Positions 27,494-42,974 of a DNA stretch of 64,000 bases are shown piece by piece. The stretch is from assembly GCA_964583985.1 (NCBI GenBank), contig CAZOYD010000002.1:94267-158266 (forward strand), read 5' to 3'. The notes beneath the pieces were generated by a model. The model was not told where the DNA came from and did no database searches. It saw only the letters and a list, made by a program, of their open reading frames with translations. A program made the translations under genes and the position numbers. Source of the DNA: an uncultured archaeon. GTDB taxonomy: Archaea; Asgardarchaeota; Lokiarchaeia; Sigyniarchaeales; SOKP01. Numbering within the stretch: the stretch's first letter is position 1; every line of letters starts with the position of its first letter.

Positions 27494-28393
27494 TCAGAGT
27501 TCTACGTGCTCTTTTTTAAGATGGAAAATTTTTCTCGCTTCATCACCCTGTGCAATTTCTCTTCCCGCGAGTTCAGCAACTTTCTTTGCCCAAATTACTT
27601 GCTCATAACTACCTTTAGCTAACTCACCTGTAATAGTACGAGTATTATCTTCTAAACCCACCCGAATATGGCCTCCTAAAGCTGCAGCACATAAACCCGC
27701 TTGAAATTGCTGCTTAGAAACTCCGCAAACACTCCAAGTAGAATCTGGAGGTATTAAATCTAATACCAAGGAGAAATTTCTTGGATTGAAAGGGATTCCT
27801 CCGAGTACACCCCATACAAACTGGAAGTGAAGTGGTTGTGTAAAGTCACCTTGTGATCTATTAAGAAAAAGCATGTTATAAAGGCCTCCTAAGTCATATA
27901 TTTCCATTTCCGGTTTCGTTCCTACTTTCTTCATCTCTTTTGCAAATTTCGTGATTGTTTTGAAAGTATTGGCAAAAATATTATCAGCACCCATGCCAAC
28001 TTTTCCAGTGTGATAATCACCAACCGCAAAATTCATGGACGCTGTATTTAGGGAAGCTAAAGGTGGTTTGAAGGTTTGAACAGGTGCTATTCTTTGCTTA
28101 TCTGTAGCTACCGAACTAATAGCACTACTTAAATTGATAATTACATCCGGAGCTTTTGATTTTATGTTTTGCAGCACAGCTTTTATTAGGTCTAAGTCAT
28201 GTGTTGGATTACCTTTTTCTGGATCTCGTGCATGGATGTGAACTATTGCAGCACCTGCATCATAGCATTTTTTTGCTTCATCTCCAAATTCCTCTGCTGT
28301 ATAGGGAACGCTTGGATTATTAGCCTTGGTTGTAATTGCACCAGCTAGAGCTGCTGAAATAACCAATTTATTTTCTGGATTTGATTCAGACAT
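27494..28393 (-). CDS. beta-keto acid cleavage enzyme (BKACE/Kce, DUF849) family
   Basis: AGAAIVHIHARD, SLN..SMNF, KPEMEIYD, GGHIRVGLED. Confidence 0.9.
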   Translation of the reverse strand: MSESNPENKLVISAALAGAITTKANNPSVPYTAEEFGDEAKKCYDAGAAIVHIHARDPEKGNPTHDLDLIKAVLQNIKSKAPDVIINLSSAISSVATDKQRIAPVQTFKPPLASLNTASMNFAVGDYHTGKVGMGADNIFANTFKTITKFAKEMKKVGTKPEMEIYDLGGLYNMLFLNRSQGDFTQPLHFQFVWGVLGGIPFNPRNFSLVLDLIPPDSTWSVCGVSKQQFQAGLCAAALGGHIRVGLEDNTRTITGELAKGSYEQVIWAKKVAELAGREIAQGDEARKIFHLKKEHVEL

Positions 28394-28611: not shown

Positions 28612-29745
28612 ATGGATAAAGTAGCAATAGTTGGTTGTGCTCAAACCAAGTATGAAGAAGACAAAATTGACTTAACTATATCAGAGTTAGTTTTTGAAGT
28701 TGTACAACAACTTCACCATGATTTGGGCATAACTAATGATGATATTGGGTGTGTAATAACCAGTTCTAATGATTTCAATGATGGAAGAACGATTGCAAAT
28801 ATGGCGATTCAAGATGCAGTGGGTTCAGTAAGAAAGGGAGAATCTCGTGTTTCTGGAGATGGAGCTTTTGCATTTGTATATGGCGCCATGAGAATTTTAT
28901 CAGGTTCCTATGACACCGTTCTCGTGGTTTCTCATTGCAAATGTTCGGAGGTAAATCAATACCTCGTTAACAATTCGATATTTGATCCATACTATCAAAG
29001 GCATTTGGGATTAGATCAAATCTCATCAGCAGGATTAATGGCAAACATGTACATGAATAAATATGGAATAACTGAAGAACAAGCTGCTAAAGTTGCTGTA
29101 AAGAATAGAAAAAATGCTCTTAACAATCCATATGCTCATTTACAAAAGGAAATATCGATTGATGACGTGCTAAATTCAAAAATGATGGCATACCCATTAA
29201 AGGAGTTGGATCTACCACCTTTTTCGGATGGAGCTGTAGCGATGTTATTGACAAGTGAAGAGAAAGCGAAAAAATTGACAGATACACCAATATGGTTAAA
29301 AGGGTATGGGAGTTGCACTGATGCATACTATTTAGGTCATAGAAATATGACGGATCTCATCGGTTTGGAATTAGCAGCTAAAACAGCCTACAAAATGGCG
29401 GGAGTTGCAAATCCTCTGAAAGAAATAGACGTGTTTGAAGTTTATGATGCATTTTCATTTCATGAATTAATGATATACGAAGCCTTGGGATTATGCGATA
29501 AAGGAAAAGGAGGAAAATTCATTGATGAACATTTTGAAACTCAGCTTCCAATAAATAAATCTGGAGGCGTATTATCTAGTAATCCAACAATGGCAAATGG
29601 TTTAATTCGAGTCGCAGAAATTGCAACGCAACTAAAAGGGGAAGCTGAAAACCGTCAAGTTGATGGTGTCAAGCTCGGTTTAGCACACGGGATGAATGGA
29701 ATATGTTCTCAAGGCAATTGTGTATTAATTTTTGGAGGAGATTAA
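28612..29745 (+). CDS. Ltp4-like thiolase-family protein (uninterrupted)
   Basis: VAIVGCAQT, SGDGAFA, DGAVA, EVYDAF, INKSGGVLSSNP. Confidence 0.85.
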   Translation: MDKVAIVGCAQTKYEEDKIDLTISELVFEVVQQLHHDLGITNDDIGCVITSSNDFNDGRTIANMAIQDAVGSVRKGESRVSGDGAFAFVYGAMRILSGSYDTVLVVSHCKCSEVNQYLVNNSIFDPYYQRHLGLDQISSAGLMANMYMNKYGITEEQAAKVAVKNRKNALNNPYAHLQKEISIDDVLNSKMMAYPLKELDLPPFSDGAVAMLLTSEEKAKKLTDTPIWLKGYGSCTDAYYLGHRNMTDLIGLELAAKTAYKMAGVANPLKEIDVFEVYDAFSFHELMIYEALGLCDKGKGGKFIDEHFETQLPINKSGGVLSSNPTMANGLIRVAEIATQLKGEAENRQVDGVKLGLAHGMNGICSQGNCVLIFGGD

Positions 29746-29749
29746 AAAA

Positions 29750-30946
29750 ATGTCTAAAAATCATGTTGCAGTAGTAGGAATGGGACAAACTAAGTTTAGA
29801 AGTAAACGAAGAGATGTTAATATCCCAGAAATGATCTATGAAGCGGTTGATATGGCTCTTAAGGATGCAAAATTAGAACCTGGAGACATTGATGCTATCT
29901 TAATTGGCAATTTTTGATATCATATCGGTATTAAATGCTAGATGGATCATTTCGAGGGAATTAATTTTTCTGAAATGTGGACGGGTATTGATGCCGCGCC
30001 GGGTTATTTGAAACCAGTGGTAAAAATTGCAACGGGAGGCACCACAGGAAGTTCTTTAGCAATTTGTGGGTATCATAATATTGCCTCGGGAATATATGAT
30101 AAAGTTCTTGTTGTTGGATGGGAAAAATTGAATGAAGGAGGGGCAACGACGGGAATTATCACGGCGTTCGATCCTGTGTGGGAGAGACCCTCATTAGCGG
30201 GAGCTTTAGGTCCACTTGCATTAATGGCGGGAATGTATTCCGCTAAATATGGGATAACTCCAGAACAAGCGGCAAAGGTAACTGTTAAAAATAGAAGTAA
30301 TGCCGCAAATAATCCTTTTGCTCACCTTCAGATGCCAGATATTACGATTGATTATGTGATGAGTTCTCAAGTTATTTCTTATCCCCTAAGATTACACGAT
30401 TGCTGTCCTCAAAGTGAAGGTGCATGTGCTCTAATTTACGCAAATGAAAAAGAAGCCAAAAAGATCACGGATACACCTGCTTGGTTTCATGCAGTAGAAA
30501 CGGCTCATTATTATACGTTTGGGACGGATGATAAGATGTACGATCTTCCTACGGCCACCATCGCATCTAAAAAAGCATATAAAAGAGCAGGAATAAAAAA
30601 TCCTTTAAGAGATTTGGATGTAGCAGAAATATATGAACCCACTTCTTGGAGCGAACTTTCATGGACTGAAGCGTTAGGGTTTTGCAAGCCAGGAGAGGGA
30701 GGTAAATTACTAGATGAAGGGATTACCCAAATGAGTGGAGAATTACCCGTTAATCCATCAGGAGGAGTCTTAAGCACGAATCCCATCGGTGCTACCGCAT
30801 TAGTTAGAGTAGCTGAAGCTGCTATTCAGATTATGGATCGTGGTGGAAAGCGTCAAGTCCCAGATGTAGAAAAAGCGCTTGCTATGGGATTTGGTGGAAG
30901 TTTATGGACGGAAGTAATGATATTAGGAAATGAACCCTTGAGGTGA
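29750..30946 (+). CDS. Ltp3-like thiolase-family protein, two exons: 29750-29911 and 29942-30946 (388 aa after splicing)
   Basis: SD GGAGGAG then ATG 29750; spliced junction DIDAILIGN|MDHFEGI; TGGTTG, EIYEP.SW, VNPSGGVLSTNPIGAT. Confidence 0.85.
29912..29941 (+). other. putative 30-nt BHB/BHL mRNA intron (intron A)
   Basis: GGCA-AT|T-TTTGATATC-ATATC-GGTATTAAA-TGCT-AG|A: 4-bp central helix, two 3-nt bulges, 9-bp intron stem; carries in-frame TGA and TAG. Confidence 0.85.
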
Positions 30947-31446
30947 AAAAATTGAGTAAGAGAAGAAAAAGTAATGAAGAAATTTTTGAAATAAAGTGGA
31001 AAACAGATCTACCATACCGCTATTCAATTGGGAAACTTGCTGTAAAGTTTTTCGAAGAGTTAAAAGAACATAGAAAAATTATGGGAAGTAAATGCAAGAA
31101 ATGCGGAAAAGTACACTTTCCACCAAGAGCTGTTTGCGCCGATTGTTTAGTAAAAATGACTGTTGATGATATGGTAGAACTACCTCCAAAAGGAACCTTG
31201 GAAGGATTTACCGTGGTAAATTATCCTTTTACAGATCCCTCAACAGGTGGTATTCGTCCATTTCCATATGGATATGGTCTTTTCAAATTAGATGGTGCTG
31301 ATACTTATACTATGCATTTTGTAAATGAGACCGATGTTACTAAAATGAAAATTGGACAACGTGTCGAAGCTGTATTTAATGATAAACTCATAGGTGATTT
31401 TACGGCAGATATTCCATATTTTAACATAATCAAAGAGGAGAAATAA
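30943..31446 (+). CDS. DUF35 Zn-ribbon/OB-fold protein
   Basis: GSKCKKCG...FPPR..C..C, PY..G..KLDGAD, IGQRVEAVF. Confidence 0.9.
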   Translation: MKKLSKRRKSNEEIFEIKWKTDLPYRYSIGKLAVKFFEELKEHRKIMGSKCKKCGKVHFPPRAVCADCLVKMTVDDMVELPPKGTLEGFTVVNYPFTDPSTGGIRPFPYGYGLFKLDGADTYTMHFVNETDVTKMKIGQRVEAVFNDKLIGDFTADIPYFNIIKEEK

Positions 31447-31461
31447 AGGAGGAAAAGAAAT

Positions 31462-31911
31462 ATGACAGATGATATAGAGAAAAAAGTGTATCGTGGACGA
31501 ATTAAAGTACCTTACAAGCACACCGCTGGGGCTTATGTAGAAAAATTCATAACTGAAATAGGAAAAAACAACAAAATTTTTGGAGTTAAATGTCCTAAAT
31601 GTGGAGAAGTATCAGTACCTCCAAAAATGATATGTTTTAAATGCTTTGAGAAAATGGAAGAATGGGTAGAAGTAGGAAATCAAGGTACTATCACCGGTTT
31701 TACAGTTGTTTCTCATTCTACACCTGTGATGCCTCTTGAACCTCCTTTTGCTTATGCATTGATTAAACTTGATGGATCTGATACTGATTTCGTTCATATA
31801 ATTAACGAAGGAGATCCGAAAAAGCTAGAAATTGGTGCAAGAGTTGAAGCAGTATTTAAAGAAAAGCCACGAAAAAGAATTTTAGATATAGAATATTTTA
31901 AGTTGATTTAG
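31462..31911 (+). CDS. DUF35 Zn-ribbon/OB-fold protein
   Basis: GVKCPKCG...VPP...C..C, PFAYALIKLDG, IGARVEAVF. Confidence 0.9.
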   Translation: MTDDIEKKVYRGRIKVPYKHTAGAYVEKFITEIGKNNKIFGVKCPKCGEVSVPPKMICFKCFEKMEEWVEVGNQGTITGFTVVSHSTPVMPLEPPFAYALIKLDGSDTDFVHIINEGDPKKLEIGARVEAVFKEKPRKRILDIEYFKLI

Positions 31912-32000: not shown

Positions 32001-33425
32001 ATGGTCGAACCAAGATATTTAAAGAAGGAAGATATTGATAGACTACTCAAAAATCCTTTAAATGAAGAAGAAATATTATTATGCCGGCGCCATCATCTTT
32101 TAACTAATGCCAGAGAACATATCATTACCGGAAGCACCGAACCTGGTTCAATTTACTTTAAAACGCAAGATGGTCAGGAAATTCTTGATTGTACTTCCCA
32201 AGCTTGGGTTTTAAATTTAGGGCATAACAATCCTGATATTAGTTATGCAATATATCTTCAATCCCAACAAGTAACTCATTCATGGTCGTATTTTTTGAAT
32301 CCTGTACGAGTAAGATTCACTAATAAGATTGCAGAGATCGCTCCAGGTCAATTAAAAGGGGGAAAAGTGAGTGTGAATAATGCTGGGGGAGGTGCTGCGT
32401 TGGAATGTGCTATAAGACTAAGCATGATCAATAACAAAAAGGGGGATCAATTTATTATATTTAGACGAGGATATCATGGTTCTAATTTAGTAATGATGGG
32501 AGCTTCACAACGATTGCCCATGAGATTCGAACCGTGGGGAAAAGAACATTGGATTAAAACTTTCTATCCATATTGTTATCGTTGCCCTTGGAATTATAAA
32601 GAAGGATTTGAAGGGAAAAGAGATAAATCATGCAATTTGGAATGCATAGAGTTTATTCGGGAAAGCATAGAATTGTATCCAACAGGGACTCCAATCGGAT
32701 GTATTATAGAACCAATGCAAGGTCCAGGTGGCATGATTCCCGCCCCAGTTGATTTCTTAGTTGGATTAAAAGAGATCTGTGCTAAAAATAAGATTCTTCT
32801 GACTTATGATGAGGCACAAACTGGATTTGGTCGAACGGGAAAAATGTTTGCTTCTGATTGGTATCAATCGACATATAATAAAGATATATCCCCAGACATT
32901 ATGACGCTGACTAAAGCAGCAGCAGCGGGTATTCCTATTGGAATCACTGTAGCATCTGAAAAGTTAAGAACCTTAACAGAGTTTGAGGAACATTCCACTT
33001 TCTCCTCTCCACCTTTAGCCATGGCAGCTTGTTTGATAAATATTGAAATATTACAGAAAAACAAGATTCCTGAAAATGCTGAAAAGCAAGGTAAGAAAAT
33101 TACATCATACATAAAAGAGCTATCAGAAGATATTCCTGAGATAGGAGATGTCAGGGGACCTGGGTTATTTATAGGAGTTGAGTTTGTTAAAGATAGAGAA
33201 ACCAGAGAACCACATAATAAATTAATAGAATCTTTGATCCATATTGCTTGGAAAAAGTATAATATCCTTTTTGGAGAACAAATGCAACTTATCGCGTCCA
33301 CCGGTGGCTACTTCATTCAAAACATACTTAAAATCAAGCCACCATTAGTAATTAATGATGAAGAAACTGATCAAATATGTGAGCGTTTTGAAAAATCTGT
33401 AAAAGAGACTATTAAAAACCTTTAA
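32001..33425 (+). CDS. class-III PLP aminotransferase
   Basis: NLGHN, YHG, IEPMQG, DEAQTGFGRTG, PDIMTLTK, GDVRG.GL. Confidence 0.9.
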   Translation: MVEPRYLKKEDIDRLLKNPLNEEEILLCRRHHLLTNAREHIITGSTEPGSIYFKTQDGQEILDCTSQAWVLNLGHNNPDISYAIYLQSQQVTHSWSYFLNPVRVRFTNKIAEIAPGQLKGGKVSVNNAGGGAALECAIRLSMINNKKGDQFIIFRRGYHGSNLVMMGASQRLPMRFEPWGKEHWIKTFYPYCYRCPWNYKEGFEGKRDKSCNLECIEFIRESIELYPTGTPIGCIIEPMQGPGGMIPAPVDFLVGLKEICAKNKILLTYDEAQTGFGRTGKMFASDWYQSTYNKDISPDIMTLTKAAAAGIPIGITVASEKLRTLTEFEEHSTFSSPPLAMAACLINIEILQKNKIPENAEKQGKKITSYIKELSEDIPEIGDVRGPGLFIGVEFVKDRETREPHNKLIESLIHIAWKKYNILFGEQMQLIASTGGYFIQNILKIKPPLVINDEETDQICERFEKSVKETIKNL

Positions 33426-42479: not shown

Positions 42480-42974
42480 TTACACTCCTCCTTCGTATTC
42501 TGGTTTTGAAATCCAATTTTCATACTCATCCTCGGGAACAAAGAAAAAGTCGGTCATCTTTCCTTCTCTTTGTTTATTAAATACTGCTTTAACTCTTTTG
42601 CCCTTTTTAATTTTAGAAGGTACGAGATTTTCTGAGAAAATCCCTTGAAATATAGCAGTTTCAGCACCATCGAGTTTAATGAATCCTATCCCATAGGGTA
42701 CTGCTTTGATAAAAGCTGAAGTTGTATACCACACGATCGTGCTTACTTGTATCGTTCCAGCTTGATTAAGTTCTACCCAATCTGCAGGTTCGTAACAATC
42801 AGAACAATTTATTCTTGGAGGCATCCATATCTTTCCACATTTGGTGCATTTCGTACCAAATAGCTTTTTATTTTTCATCACTTCGATAAAGAATTTGGAT
42901 TGACCACCCATCGTATAACGATATTCTATTTTTATTCGATCACGTATTTGATGATCTTGGAATTTTTCTGTCAT
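42480..42974 (-). CDS. DUF35 Zn-ribbon/OB-fold protein
   Basis: GTKCTKCG...MPPR..C..C, PY..G.IKLDGA; translationally coupled to the upstream thiolase. Confidence 0.9.
   Translation of the reverse strand: MTEKFQDHQIRDRIKIEYRYTMGGQSKFFIEVMKNKKLFGTKCTKCGKIWMPPRINCSDCYEPADWVELNQAGTIQVSTIVWYTTSAFIKAVPYGIGFIKLDGAETAIFQGIFSENLVPSKIKKGKRVKAVFNKQREGKMTDFFFVPEDEYENWISKPEYEGGV

What the first reader, a model, noticed from the sequence alone, without database searches (positions are those of the whole stretch)
29905..29948. Intron A: 30-nt in-frame poison intron in the Ltp3-like thiolase
Seen: GGC AAT [TTT TGA TAT CAT ATC GGT ATT AAA TGC TAG] ATG GAT CAT. The insert is in frame but carries TGA and TAG, so the unspliced mRNA gives a 55-aa stub. 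Fold: GGCA/TGCT central helix, bulges AT|T and AG|A, 9-bp stem TTTGATATC/GGTATTAAA with a 5-nt loop. The outer exon-exon helix is weak (BHL-like). Spliced DIDAILIGNMDHFEG matches the spacing of paralogs here (YGHFADHFGDQ, YGIYNELFERQ) and, from memory, Ltp3-type DIDAVVVGKAPDFFEG. Inference: splicing gates the thiolase and possibly the translationally coupled DUF35 gene downstream.
Basis: partly seen in the sequence, partly recalled or inferred. Interest (0 to 1): 0.9.

Follow-up and report, generated by a model that had tools for sequence, protein, structure and literature searches.

The report
tRNA-type mini-intron in Asgard thiolase gene
A 30-base hairpin carrying two stop codons interrupts a thiolase gene of a Loki-type Asgard archaeon. 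It has the shape cut by the tRNA-splicing enzyme and is kept with compensating base changes in 24 related sequences, so the mRNA is almost certainly spliced, which the papers I could search report for the coding region of only one archaeal gene (cbf5).

Summary
The thiolase gene 29750-30946(+) carries exactly 30 extra bases (29912-29941) with in-frame TGA and TAG. Orthologs of 388 aa read ...IGN|MDHFEG... with an exact 10-residue gap there.

The same insert sits at the same site in 24 distinct alleles (20 distinct intron sequences) from Promethearchaeota MAGs and metagenomes. It is absent from 16 congeneric species.

Of all pair cells, 97% are paired (32-41% when slid), and 5 of 13 pairs show double compensatory changes. 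The junction set by protein homology falls after the 2nd nucleotide of each bulge, which is the EndA rule. The outer exon-exon helix is essentially missing, so the motif is relaxed (HBh'/BHL).

Exon 2 is under strong purifying selection (dN/dS 0.02-0.06). The genome encodes an alpha/beta EndA with the crenarchaeal-type loop, and RtcB.

No spliced RNA was found, so splicing is inferred.

Earlier notes of this scan report the same class on other Asgard genomes. In the papers I could search it is described only for cbf5, plus one Haloferax 5' UTR.

The parts
29750..29911 (+). Exon 1 of the thiolase-domain gene (54 codons, ends ...ATT GGC AAT). An SD-like GGAGGA lies upstream.
   Evidence: tblastn of exon 1 against relatives.
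29912..29941 (+). 30-nt intron (phase 0, 27% GC) with in-frame TGA (29915-29917) and TAG (29939-29941).
   Evidence: Exact 10-aa gap in orthologs. Absent from 16 congeners. Present in 24 distinct alleles. Single copy in the genome.
29906..29909 (+). 5' strand of the central 4-bp helix H (exon GGCA), followed by bulge A29910 U29911 | U29912. The predicted 5' cut is after 29911.
   Evidence: columns 15-18 with 45-48: 96.9% paired; C-G / U.G / U-A covariation. The Gly codon's third base is a pyrimidine in 24/24 intron alleles against 4/18 intron-less ones.
29913..29935 (+). Intron hairpin h': 9-bp stem (29913-29921 with 29927-29935) and 5-nt loop (29922-29926).
   Evidence: 97.7% paired; 4 of 9 pairs with double compensatory changes.
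29936..29942 (+). 3' strand of helix H (UGCU, 29936-29939), then A29940 G29941 | A29942. The predicted 3' cut is after 29941. No closing outer helix.
   Evidence: outer helix 41.7% paired, near background.
29942..30946 (+). Exon 2 (334 codons plus stop). It starts at the conserved Met of NMDHFEG and has no SD-like motif upstream.
   Evidence: the NCBIfam PRK08313 match starts at profile position 57. dN/dS 0.02-0.06 among intron-bearing alleles..
30943..31446 (+). DUF35/ChsH2-type (zinc ribbon plus OB) gene overlapping the thiolase stop by 4 nt. A second copy lies at 31462-31911.
28612..29745 (+). Intact paralogous thiolase-domain gene directly upstream in the same operon.

Best explanation
The 30 nt at 29912-29941 are an archaeal endonuclease-type intron of the relaxed bulge-helix-bulge kind (HBh'/BHL) inside the coding region of an SCP2-type thiolase-domain gene. 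In the pre-mRNA, the last exon bases GGCA pair with the intron's UGCU to form the 4-bp central helix. A 3-nt bulge (AU|U) separates that helix from a 9-bp intron hairpin. The 3' site (AG|A) lies two bases beyond the helix in an essentially unpaired stretch. The heteromeric (alpha-beta)2 splicing endonuclease of this genome cuts after the second nucleotide of each bulge, and RtcB joins the exons, giving ...ILIGN-MDHFEG... and a normal 388-aa protein. Shown here: the insert, its exact junction, its conservation and covariation, selection on both exons, and the presence of the enzymes. Inferred: the cutting and joining themselves. The intron is old in this gene lineage and has been lost precisely, or moved by recombination, several times.
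For: (1) Orthologs from Promethearchaeota, Hodarchaeota, Freyarchaeota and deltaproteobacteria are 388-390 aa and show an exact 10-residue gap between N and M. Shifting the 30-nt excision by one base in either direction would give K or L instead of the conserved N and M. The homology-defined junction therefore equals the cut after the 2nd bulge nucleotide, the rule used for cbf5 (PMC2738675).
(2) A pattern that left the 30 inner bases free found 20 further loci, all with a homologous insert. Together this gives 24 distinct alleles and 20 distinct intron sequences.
(3) RNAalifold predicts exactly H + bulge + 9-bp stem. Cells are 97.4% paired against 32-41% when slid, 5 of 13 pairs have changes on both sides, and 0/500 shuffles reach the covariation score.
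(4) The exon base that pairs with the intron (third base of the Gly codon) is C/U in 24/24 intron alleles but in only 4/18 intron-less ones (Fisher p = 6e-8, not corrected for relatedness).
(5) Exon 2, which lies behind two stops, has dN/dS 0.02-0.06 with saturated synonymous sites (pS 0.72). The intron differs by only 0.195 per site. All complete alleles keep 334-336 open codons.
(6) The genome has a catalytic EndA alpha. It matches Aeropyrum 3p1z_B at 1e-36, keeps the Tyr/His/Lys motifs, and aligns to the crenarchaeal-loop region without gaps. A second EndA paralog has lost Tyr and His (beta-like). RtcB is also present. Asgard EndA is reported as (alpha-beta)2 with the L1 loop that allows relaxed motifs (PMC5829648).
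(7) The same geometry and cut rule restore LeuRS, DnaG and a PurM-like gene elsewhere in this genome. In these cases the phases and lengths rule out a simple two-ORF reading. Two inserts of 35 and 31 nt in the neighbouring thiolase are absent from congeners.
Against: I found no spliced RNA. Near-identical intron-less sequences are DNA alleles of related strains (96% nt identity), not transcripts. The outer exon-exon helix is at most U.G plus A-U, and in the window only U.G, so the 3' site is not in a closed bulge. The single-sequence folding energy is unremarkable (z = -1.5). Because the insert is in frame and is followed directly by ATG, this one case alone cannot exclude translation as two polypeptides. 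Two structure-first genome scans showed no excess over controls.
Confidence: 0.85

Rival explanations
1. Split gene. The mRNA is not spliced. Ribosomes terminate at TGA 29915 and re-initiate at ATG 29942, with the hairpin bringing stop and start together. This gives a 55-aa and a 334-aa chain that assemble into a thiolase.
For: The insert is in frame. A conserved ATG follows the last stop directly. A conserved bulged hairpin would also suit such coupling. Gene callers already annotate two ORFs.
Against: No SD-like motif lies before ATG 29942 in any allele, whereas operon-internal genes here have AGGAGG. The Met is conserved in intron-less orthologs too, so it is not a new start. The cut would fall inside the N-terminal thiolase core. 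This reading does not explain why the junction coincides with the 2nd/3rd bulge positions around a 4-bp helix. Sister inserts in this genome are 31 and 35 nt long, or lie in phase 1 or 2 with no start codon after them.
Confidence: 0.06
2. Regulated 'poison' intron. Splicing happens but is conditional, so retention of the stop-bearing intron switches off the thiolase and the coupled DUF35 gene. This adds to the best explanation and is not exclusive of it.
For: All 20 intron variants keep an in-frame stop at codon 2, and 19 of 20 keep one at codon 10. The DUF35 start overlaps the thiolase stop by 4 nt.
Against: Both stops are by-products of the paired and bulged bases. About 63% of AT-rich 10-codon strings would contain a stop anyway (my estimate from base composition). 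Sixteen congeners run the same operon without the intron. No sensor or alternative fold is conserved.
Confidence: 0.12
3. Dead gene: the insert is a disabling insertion and the thiolase is a pseudogene.
For: There are two in-frame stops.
Against: Exons on both sides stay intact with dN/dS 0.02-0.06 across alleles whose synonymous sites are saturated. The insert itself is conserved and covaries.
Confidence: 0.02
4. Recoding or bypass: the stops are read through (Sec/Pyl/suppression) and 10 residues are kept, or the ribosome hops over the insert as in T4 gene 60.
For: The insert is in frame, and a hairpin follows the first stop.
Against: The stops vary among TGA, TAA and TAG between alleles. No ortholog has the 10 residues. 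Changes follow base pairing, not codons. No matching take-off and landing codons would resume the frame at ATG (read from the sequence).
Confidence: 0.01
5. Assembly artefact or a repeated mobile element (MITE-like hairpin).
For: It is a short AT-rich palindromic insert.
Against: There are 24 distinct alleles from independent assemblies. It is single copy in the genome at up to 6 mismatches. It is always at the same site with no target duplication.
Confidence: 0.01

Closest known systems
cbf5 pre-mRNA intron of Crenarchaeota (Aeropyrum, Sulfolobales, Desulfurococcales; Watanabe 2002, Yoshinari 2006, Yokobori 2009 = PMC2738675)
   Same: An endonuclease-type intron inside a protein-coding region. 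The BHB motif is unconventional or relaxed and needs the heteromeric EndA. Cuts fall between the 2nd and 3rd bulge residues. Lineage-specific loss is seen (for the paper; here).
   Different: A different gene (a thiolase-domain protein, not cbf5) and a different phylum (Promethearchaeota, Asgard). It is only 30 nt, in phase 0, and in frame with stops. Here splicing is inferred, whereas cDNA and in vitro cleavage exist for cbf5. Several other genes of the same genome carry similar inserts.
Non-canonical (HBh'/BHL) tRNA introns of Crenarchaeota and Asgard archaea (Marck & Grosjean 2003; PMC5829648; bioRxiv 10.64898/2026.10.13.758758)
   Same: The same motif logic (4-bp helix, 3-nt bulge, intron hairpin), the same presumed enzymes, and a similar size range. 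Thirteen of the 22 tRNA genes ARAGORN finds in this genome have introns.
   Different: The host RNA is an mRNA. The exon strand of the helix is a Gly-Asn codon pair, so coding and pairing constraints overlap. There is no tRNA body to help recognition.
BHB intron in the 5' UTR of HVO_1309 mRNA, Haloferax volcanii (PMC7714728)
   Same: An mRNA substrate of the archaeal splicing endonuclease.
   Different: That intron is in the untranslated leader. This one interrupts the reading frame.
HAC1/XBP1 unconventional mRNA splicing (IRE1 plus RtcB/Trl1) in eukaryotes
   Same: A small intron is removed from an mRNA by a protein endonuclease that recognises stem-loops, and the exons are joined by a tRNA ligase. 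Removal changes the protein made. (From general knowledge.)
   Different: A different nuclease and motif. That system is a proven regulatory switch, and no regulation is shown here.

Membership tests
Archaeal endonuclease-type (BHB / relaxed HBh') intron | Central helix of exactly 4 bp between the two cut sites | tested here: met
   Columns 15-18 with 45-48 of A3: 96.9% of cells paired, with C-G / U.G / U-A covariation. Predicted independently by RNAalifold.
Archaeal endonuclease-type (BHB / relaxed HBh') intron | 3-nt bulge at the 5' site closed by helix H and an inner helix h' | tested here: met
   The bulge is A-[U/C]-[A/U], between H and a 9-bp stem that is 97.7% paired with 4 double-compensatory pairs.
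Archaeal endonuclease-type (BHB / relaxed HBh') intron | 3-nt bulge at the 3' site closed by an outer exon-exon helix h (strict hBHBh' form) | tested here: not met
   Only U.G (24/24) plus A-U (14/24, not in the window). The 4-pair test is 41.7% paired, near the slid controls. It therefore fits only the relaxed HBh'/BHL form, not the strict one.
Archaeal endonuclease-type (BHB / relaxed HBh') intron | Exon junction lies between the 2nd and 3rd nucleotide of each bulge | tested here: met
   Ortholog proteins and intron-less DNA alleles fix the junction at AAT|ATG, which is AU|U and AG|A. The rule is as stated in PMC2738675.
Archaeal endonuclease-type (BHB / relaxed HBh') intron | Host encodes a splicing endonuclease able to cut relaxed motifs, and an RNA ligase | tested here: met
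   Two EndA-domain genes are present. The alpha matches Aeropyrum 3p1z_B at 1e-36, with the loop region aligned without gaps. The second copy lacks the catalytic Tyr and His. RtcB scores 557 bits. The (alpha-beta)2 plus L1 type is reported for Asgard in PMC5829648.
Archaeal endonuclease-type (BHB / relaxed HBh') intron | The intron is actually excised and the exons ligated (spliced RNA, circular or linear intron) | not testable with these tools
   No transcript data are available. The search for a spliced-looking near-identical contig found only diverged DNA alleles.
cbf5 intron (orthologous intron family) | Located in cbf5 at the codon of the catalytic Asp | tested here: not met
   The host gene is a thiolase-domain protein. 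It works like the cbf5 intron but is not a member of that intron lineage.
Self-splicing group I/II introns or any curated RNA family | Match to a curated covariance model; ribozyme-sized RNA | tested here: not met
   No Rfam match in the window at gathering scores. At 30 nt it is far too small.
Repeated mobile hairpin element (MITE/REP-like) | Multiple similar copies in the genome | tested here: not met
   Single copy at up to 6 mismatches. The only other hit, at 8 mismatches, looks like chance.

The most novel reading that the evidence does not exclude
Intron A is one of a population of tRNA-endonuclease-spliced mini-introns in the mRNAs of Promethearchaeota. They affect metabolic and essential genes: two thiolases here, and LeuRS, DnaG and a PurM-like gene elsewhere in this genome. 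They are gained, lost or exchanged between close relatives. If so, routine protein-enzyme mRNA splicing exists in the archaeal relatives of eukaryotes, and their gene annotation is systematically wrong at these sites.
Probability: 0.7. Interest if true: 0.85.

Novelty: new member of a known kind. Interest (0 to 1): 0.68.

Why it matters
In the papers I could search, endonuclease-type introns inside archaeal coding sequences are described for only one gene, cbf5 in Crenarchaeota, plus one 5' UTR case in Haloferax (PMC7714728, PMC2738675). This case adds a well-supported example in Asgard archaea, with 24 alleles, covariation that includes an exon codon, and clear presence/absence between sibling species. 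That makes intron gain and loss in a prokaryotic mRNA directly measurable.

It also has a practical consequence. Public annotations split this gene into a 55-aa ORF and a 'thiolase C-terminal domain' ORF. The same happens to essential genes such as LeuRS in this genome. Proteomes, pathway reconstructions and phylogenies of Asgard archaea therefore contain truncated proteins.

The case gives a simple substrate (about 70 nt) for testing what the Asgard (alpha-beta)2 endonuclease accepts.

Tried and rejected
(1) Structure-first genome scans. A rigid H + bulge + stem pattern gave 15,483 hits with a flat length distribution and no enrichment for bulges starting with A. Combining it with an ORF-rescue test gave the same counts when both cut sites were shifted together. 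A relaxed pattern with a frame control, moving the 3' cut by 1, 2 or 4 nt, gave 296 rescues against 268-328 in the controls. Boundaries between same-strand genes swamp the signal, so I claim no genome-wide number. Only individually checked cases are reported.

(2) Search for RNA-derived spliced contigs. Spliced translations of all intron alleles were compared with the 120 database proteins. The nearest intron-less ones (P0031, P0006) come from contigs that are only 86-96% identical in DNA to intron-bearing contigs, so they are alleles, not transcripts.

(3) The alternative outer helix in the MFE fold (CUAUCU/AGAUGG) was rejected because it is not conserved.

(4) Rfam and ARAGORN found nothing in the window.

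(5) A gene-60-type bypass was rejected because there are no usable take-off and landing codons.

(6) G015 looked as if its ortholog might be broken at the same site. The contig simply ends 5 nt upstream and reads GGAAT|ATG, so it is intron-less.

Full report
**What is in the sequence.** The window is part of a 3.8-Mb, 138-contig genome (G000, contig C2) of about 32% GC. Its nearest database relatives are labelled Promethearchaeota / Lokiarchaeota.

At 28612-31911(+) lies an operon of two thiolase-domain genes and two DUF35/ChsH2-type genes. The second thiolase starts at ATG 29750, behind an SD-like GGAGGA. It reads ...DIDAILIGN, then F, TGA, YHIGIKC, TAG, and then MDHFEG... to the stop at 30946, all in one frame.

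- The extra stretch is 29912-29941: 30 nt, phase 0.
- The unspliced product would be 55 aa.

**Is it an insertion relative to the family?** A database search with the read-through translation found thousands of relatives. The closest 75 or so are 386-394 aa. The query without the 10 extra residues would be 388 aa.

In the alignment, orthologs from Promethearchaeota, Hodarchaeota, Freyarchaeota and deltaproteobacteria all show a clean 10-column gap.

In 16 other species of the same genus the DNA reads GGN AAT|ATG GAY with nothing between. This includes the closest relative, G006, at 96-98% protein identity.

Removing 30 nt one base to the left or right would give Lys or Leu instead of the conserved Asn or Met. 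Homology therefore fixes the junction to the base.

**It is not private to this genome.** The protein search also returned 334-336-aa 'thiolase C-terminal domain' proteins that begin at MDHFEG. Their contigs show the same layout: a 55- or 60-aa ORF, 24 nt, then the 334-336-aa ORF. They carry a homologous 30-nt insert.

I then scanned metagenome and species-representative contigs with a pattern that fixed only the exon flanks and left the 30 inner bases free. All 20 matches carried a homologous insert. Together this makes 24 distinct alleles and 20 distinct intron sequences. This rules out an assembly artefact.

The sequence is single copy in the genome, so it is not a repeat element.

**Structure.**
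- exon GGYA pairs with intron URCU (4 bp);
- a 3-nt bulge follows;
- then a 9-bp stem with a 5-nt loop.

Counting pairs on that structure gives:
- 97.4% of cells are standard pairs, against 32-41% when the 3' partners are slid by 1-3 columns.
- 5 of 13 pairs have changes on both sides: C-G to U-A in the central helix; C-G to U-A, A-U to G-C or U.G, and U-A to C-G in the stem.
- No shuffle out of 500 reaches the covariation score.

The exon base in the central helix is the third base of the Gly codon. It is C or U in 24/24 intron alleles, but A or G in 14/18 intron-less alleles. Fisher p is 6e-8, with the caveat that relatives are not independent. So a synonymous site is held by pairing with the intron.

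The first base of both bulges is an invariant A.

The outer exon-exon helix is at most U.G plus A-U, and the A-U is missing in the window.

**The gene is alive.** All complete intron-bearing alleles keep both exons open. Among them exon 2, which lies behind the stops, has pN 0.09 against pS 0.72. This gives dN/dS of 0.02-0.06 where dS can be computed. The intron differs by only 0.195 per site, far less than synonymous sites. Both the protein and the intron sequence are under selection, which excludes a pseudogene.

**Distribution.** In DNA and protein trees the intron-bearing alleles are scattered among intron-less ones. The best protein tree needs 7 changes, and well-supported branches force at least 2.

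The window groups with intron-bearing L038, and their sister G006 lacks the intron. Because the intron sequences are homologous, the simplest reading is an old intron with repeated precise loss, or replacement by intron-less alleles through recombination. The cbf5 intron shows a comparable loss pattern (PMC2738675).

**Machinery.** The genome has two EndA-domain genes.
- One matches the catalytic subunit of the Aeropyrum heterotetramer (3p1z_B, 1e-36). It keeps the Tyr, His and Lys motifs and aligns without gaps through the region of the crenarchaeal-specific loop.
- The other has Phe and Ser at the Tyr and His positions, like a structural beta subunit.
- RtcB is present.

Kaneta et al. report that Asgard archaea have the (alpha-beta)2 type with the L1 loop, which permits relaxed motifs (PMC5829648).

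**Mechanism proposed.**
1. The pre-mRNA folds into H + bulge + hairpin.
2. EndA cuts after 29911 and after 29941.
3. RtcB joins the exons.
4. The ribosome then makes the 388-aa protein.

The first step is supported by covariation. The cut positions are supported by the coincidence of the homology junction with the 2nd/3rd-bulge rule. The enzymatic steps are inferred.

**Rivals.**
- *Two-polypeptide reading (termination then re-initiation at ATG 29942).* This cannot be excluded from this intron alone. However, there is no SD-like motif before that ATG, while operon-internal genes here have AGGAGG. The Met is ancestral, not a new start. The 4-bp/3-nt geometry would be unexplained.
- *Read-through or bypass.* This fails because the stops vary (TGA/TAA/TAG) and no ortholog keeps the 10 residues.
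- *Regulated 'poison' intron.* This is possible but has no support. The stops are consequences of paired and bulged bases, and sibling species lack the intron.

**Context in the same genome.** The second thiolase of the window (42974-44293, minus strand) carries 35-nt and 31-nt inserts around a 16-nt micro-exon. Intron-less congeners read ...SADMTY-EYPMG-MMAASSY....

A rigid scan for the same geometry plus ORF rescue picked up further cases:
- a 30-nt insert in LeuRS, between ...DPNYY and WDQWFF..., where Pfam tRNA-synt_1 positions 1-134 lie before it and the editing domain after it;
- a 31-nt insert in DnaG;
- a 30-nt insert in a PurM-like gene, where exon 2 starts at position 43 of the AIRS domain;
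- a 30-nt insert in a CoxE-like VWA gene.

The LeuRS, DnaG and PurM-like inserts lie in phase 1 or 2 and are not followed by a start codon, so they need removal at the RNA level. However, my genome-wide scans showed no statistical excess over controls, so I give no count.

**Literature and earlier notes.** The papers I could search describe endonuclease-type introns in archaeal mRNAs only for cbf5 and for the 5' UTR of Haloferax HVO_1309 (PMC7714728; PMC2738675). Four searches found none for Asgard protein genes. A 2026 preprint treats only Asgard tRNA introns.

Earlier notes of this scan report the same class on this genome and on other Asgard genomes. I used them as leads and re-tested what I cite.

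**Verdict.**
- The interpretation as a BHL-type intron is supported.
- The gating idea is untested.
- It is a new member of a known kind, of clear interest because of the lineage, the quality of the comparative evidence, and the consequences for annotation.

Noticed in passing
window 43849-43815 and 43798-43768 (minus strand), micro-exon 43814-43799: The second thiolase-domain gene (42974-44293, minus strand) has a 35-nt and a 31-nt insert around a 16-nt micro-exon. Intron-less orthologs in G006, G008 and G002 read ...SADMTY EYPMG MMAASSY... Neither length is a multiple of 3. Exact boundaries may slide by a base or two.
   Followed up: partly
L061:2381-2410 (= G000:C64:4237-4266, minus strand): A 30-nt insert with the same 4-bp helix, 3-nt bulges and 9-bp stem splits the leucyl-tRNA synthetase gene in phase 2, between ...DPNYY and WDQWFF.... 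Pfam places tRNA-synt_1 positions 1-134 before it, and the LeuRS editing domain and the rest after it. This is an essential gene.
   Followed up: partly
L064:129-159 (C26:12729-12759, +); L062:918-947 (C123:4513-4542, -); L063:293-322 (C31:34232-34261, -): Further candidate mini-introns of 31, 30 and 30 nt in DnaG, a PurM/AIR-synthase-like gene and a CoxE-like VWA gene. All were found by the same geometry plus ORF rescue. Only Pfam on the exon halves was checked.
   Followed up: partly
L055, L057, L058, L059 (G005, G003, G004 orthologs of the second thiolase): In these congeners the ortholog shows other in-frame stops and length differences (for example +30 nt in G005). This suggests different or additional inserts in different species.
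   Followed up: no
L066 versus L045: The intron-less contig L066 is 96.2% identical to intron-bearing L045 downstream of the intron site, but only 84.6% identical upstream. The alignment breaks at the site. This may be a recombination breakpoint linked to intron loss or gain, or it may just reflect different divergence of the two thiolase genes.
   Followed up: no
whole genome G000: ARAGORN finds only 22 tRNA genes in a genome rated 100% complete, and 13 of them have introns. Many tRNA genes are probably hidden by non-canonical or multiple introns. The 64-kb window has no tRNA and no Rfam match.
   Followed up: no
L020-L025 and public records behind them (e.g. GCA_030620005.1): Public gene calls split this thiolase into a 55-60-aa ORF with no family and a 334-336-aa 'thiolase C-terminal domain' protein. 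This is an annotation error caused by the intron.
   Followed up: yes
window 27494-28393 (minus strand) and 32001-33425 (+): The thiolase/DUF35 operon is flanked by a divergently oriented 299-aa gene that is probably a BKACE-type beta-keto-acid cleavage enzyme. This is inferred only from the PF05853 gene in the same position on L065; the window gene itself was not scanned. Downstream lies a 474-aa gene that I did not scan.
   Followed up: no
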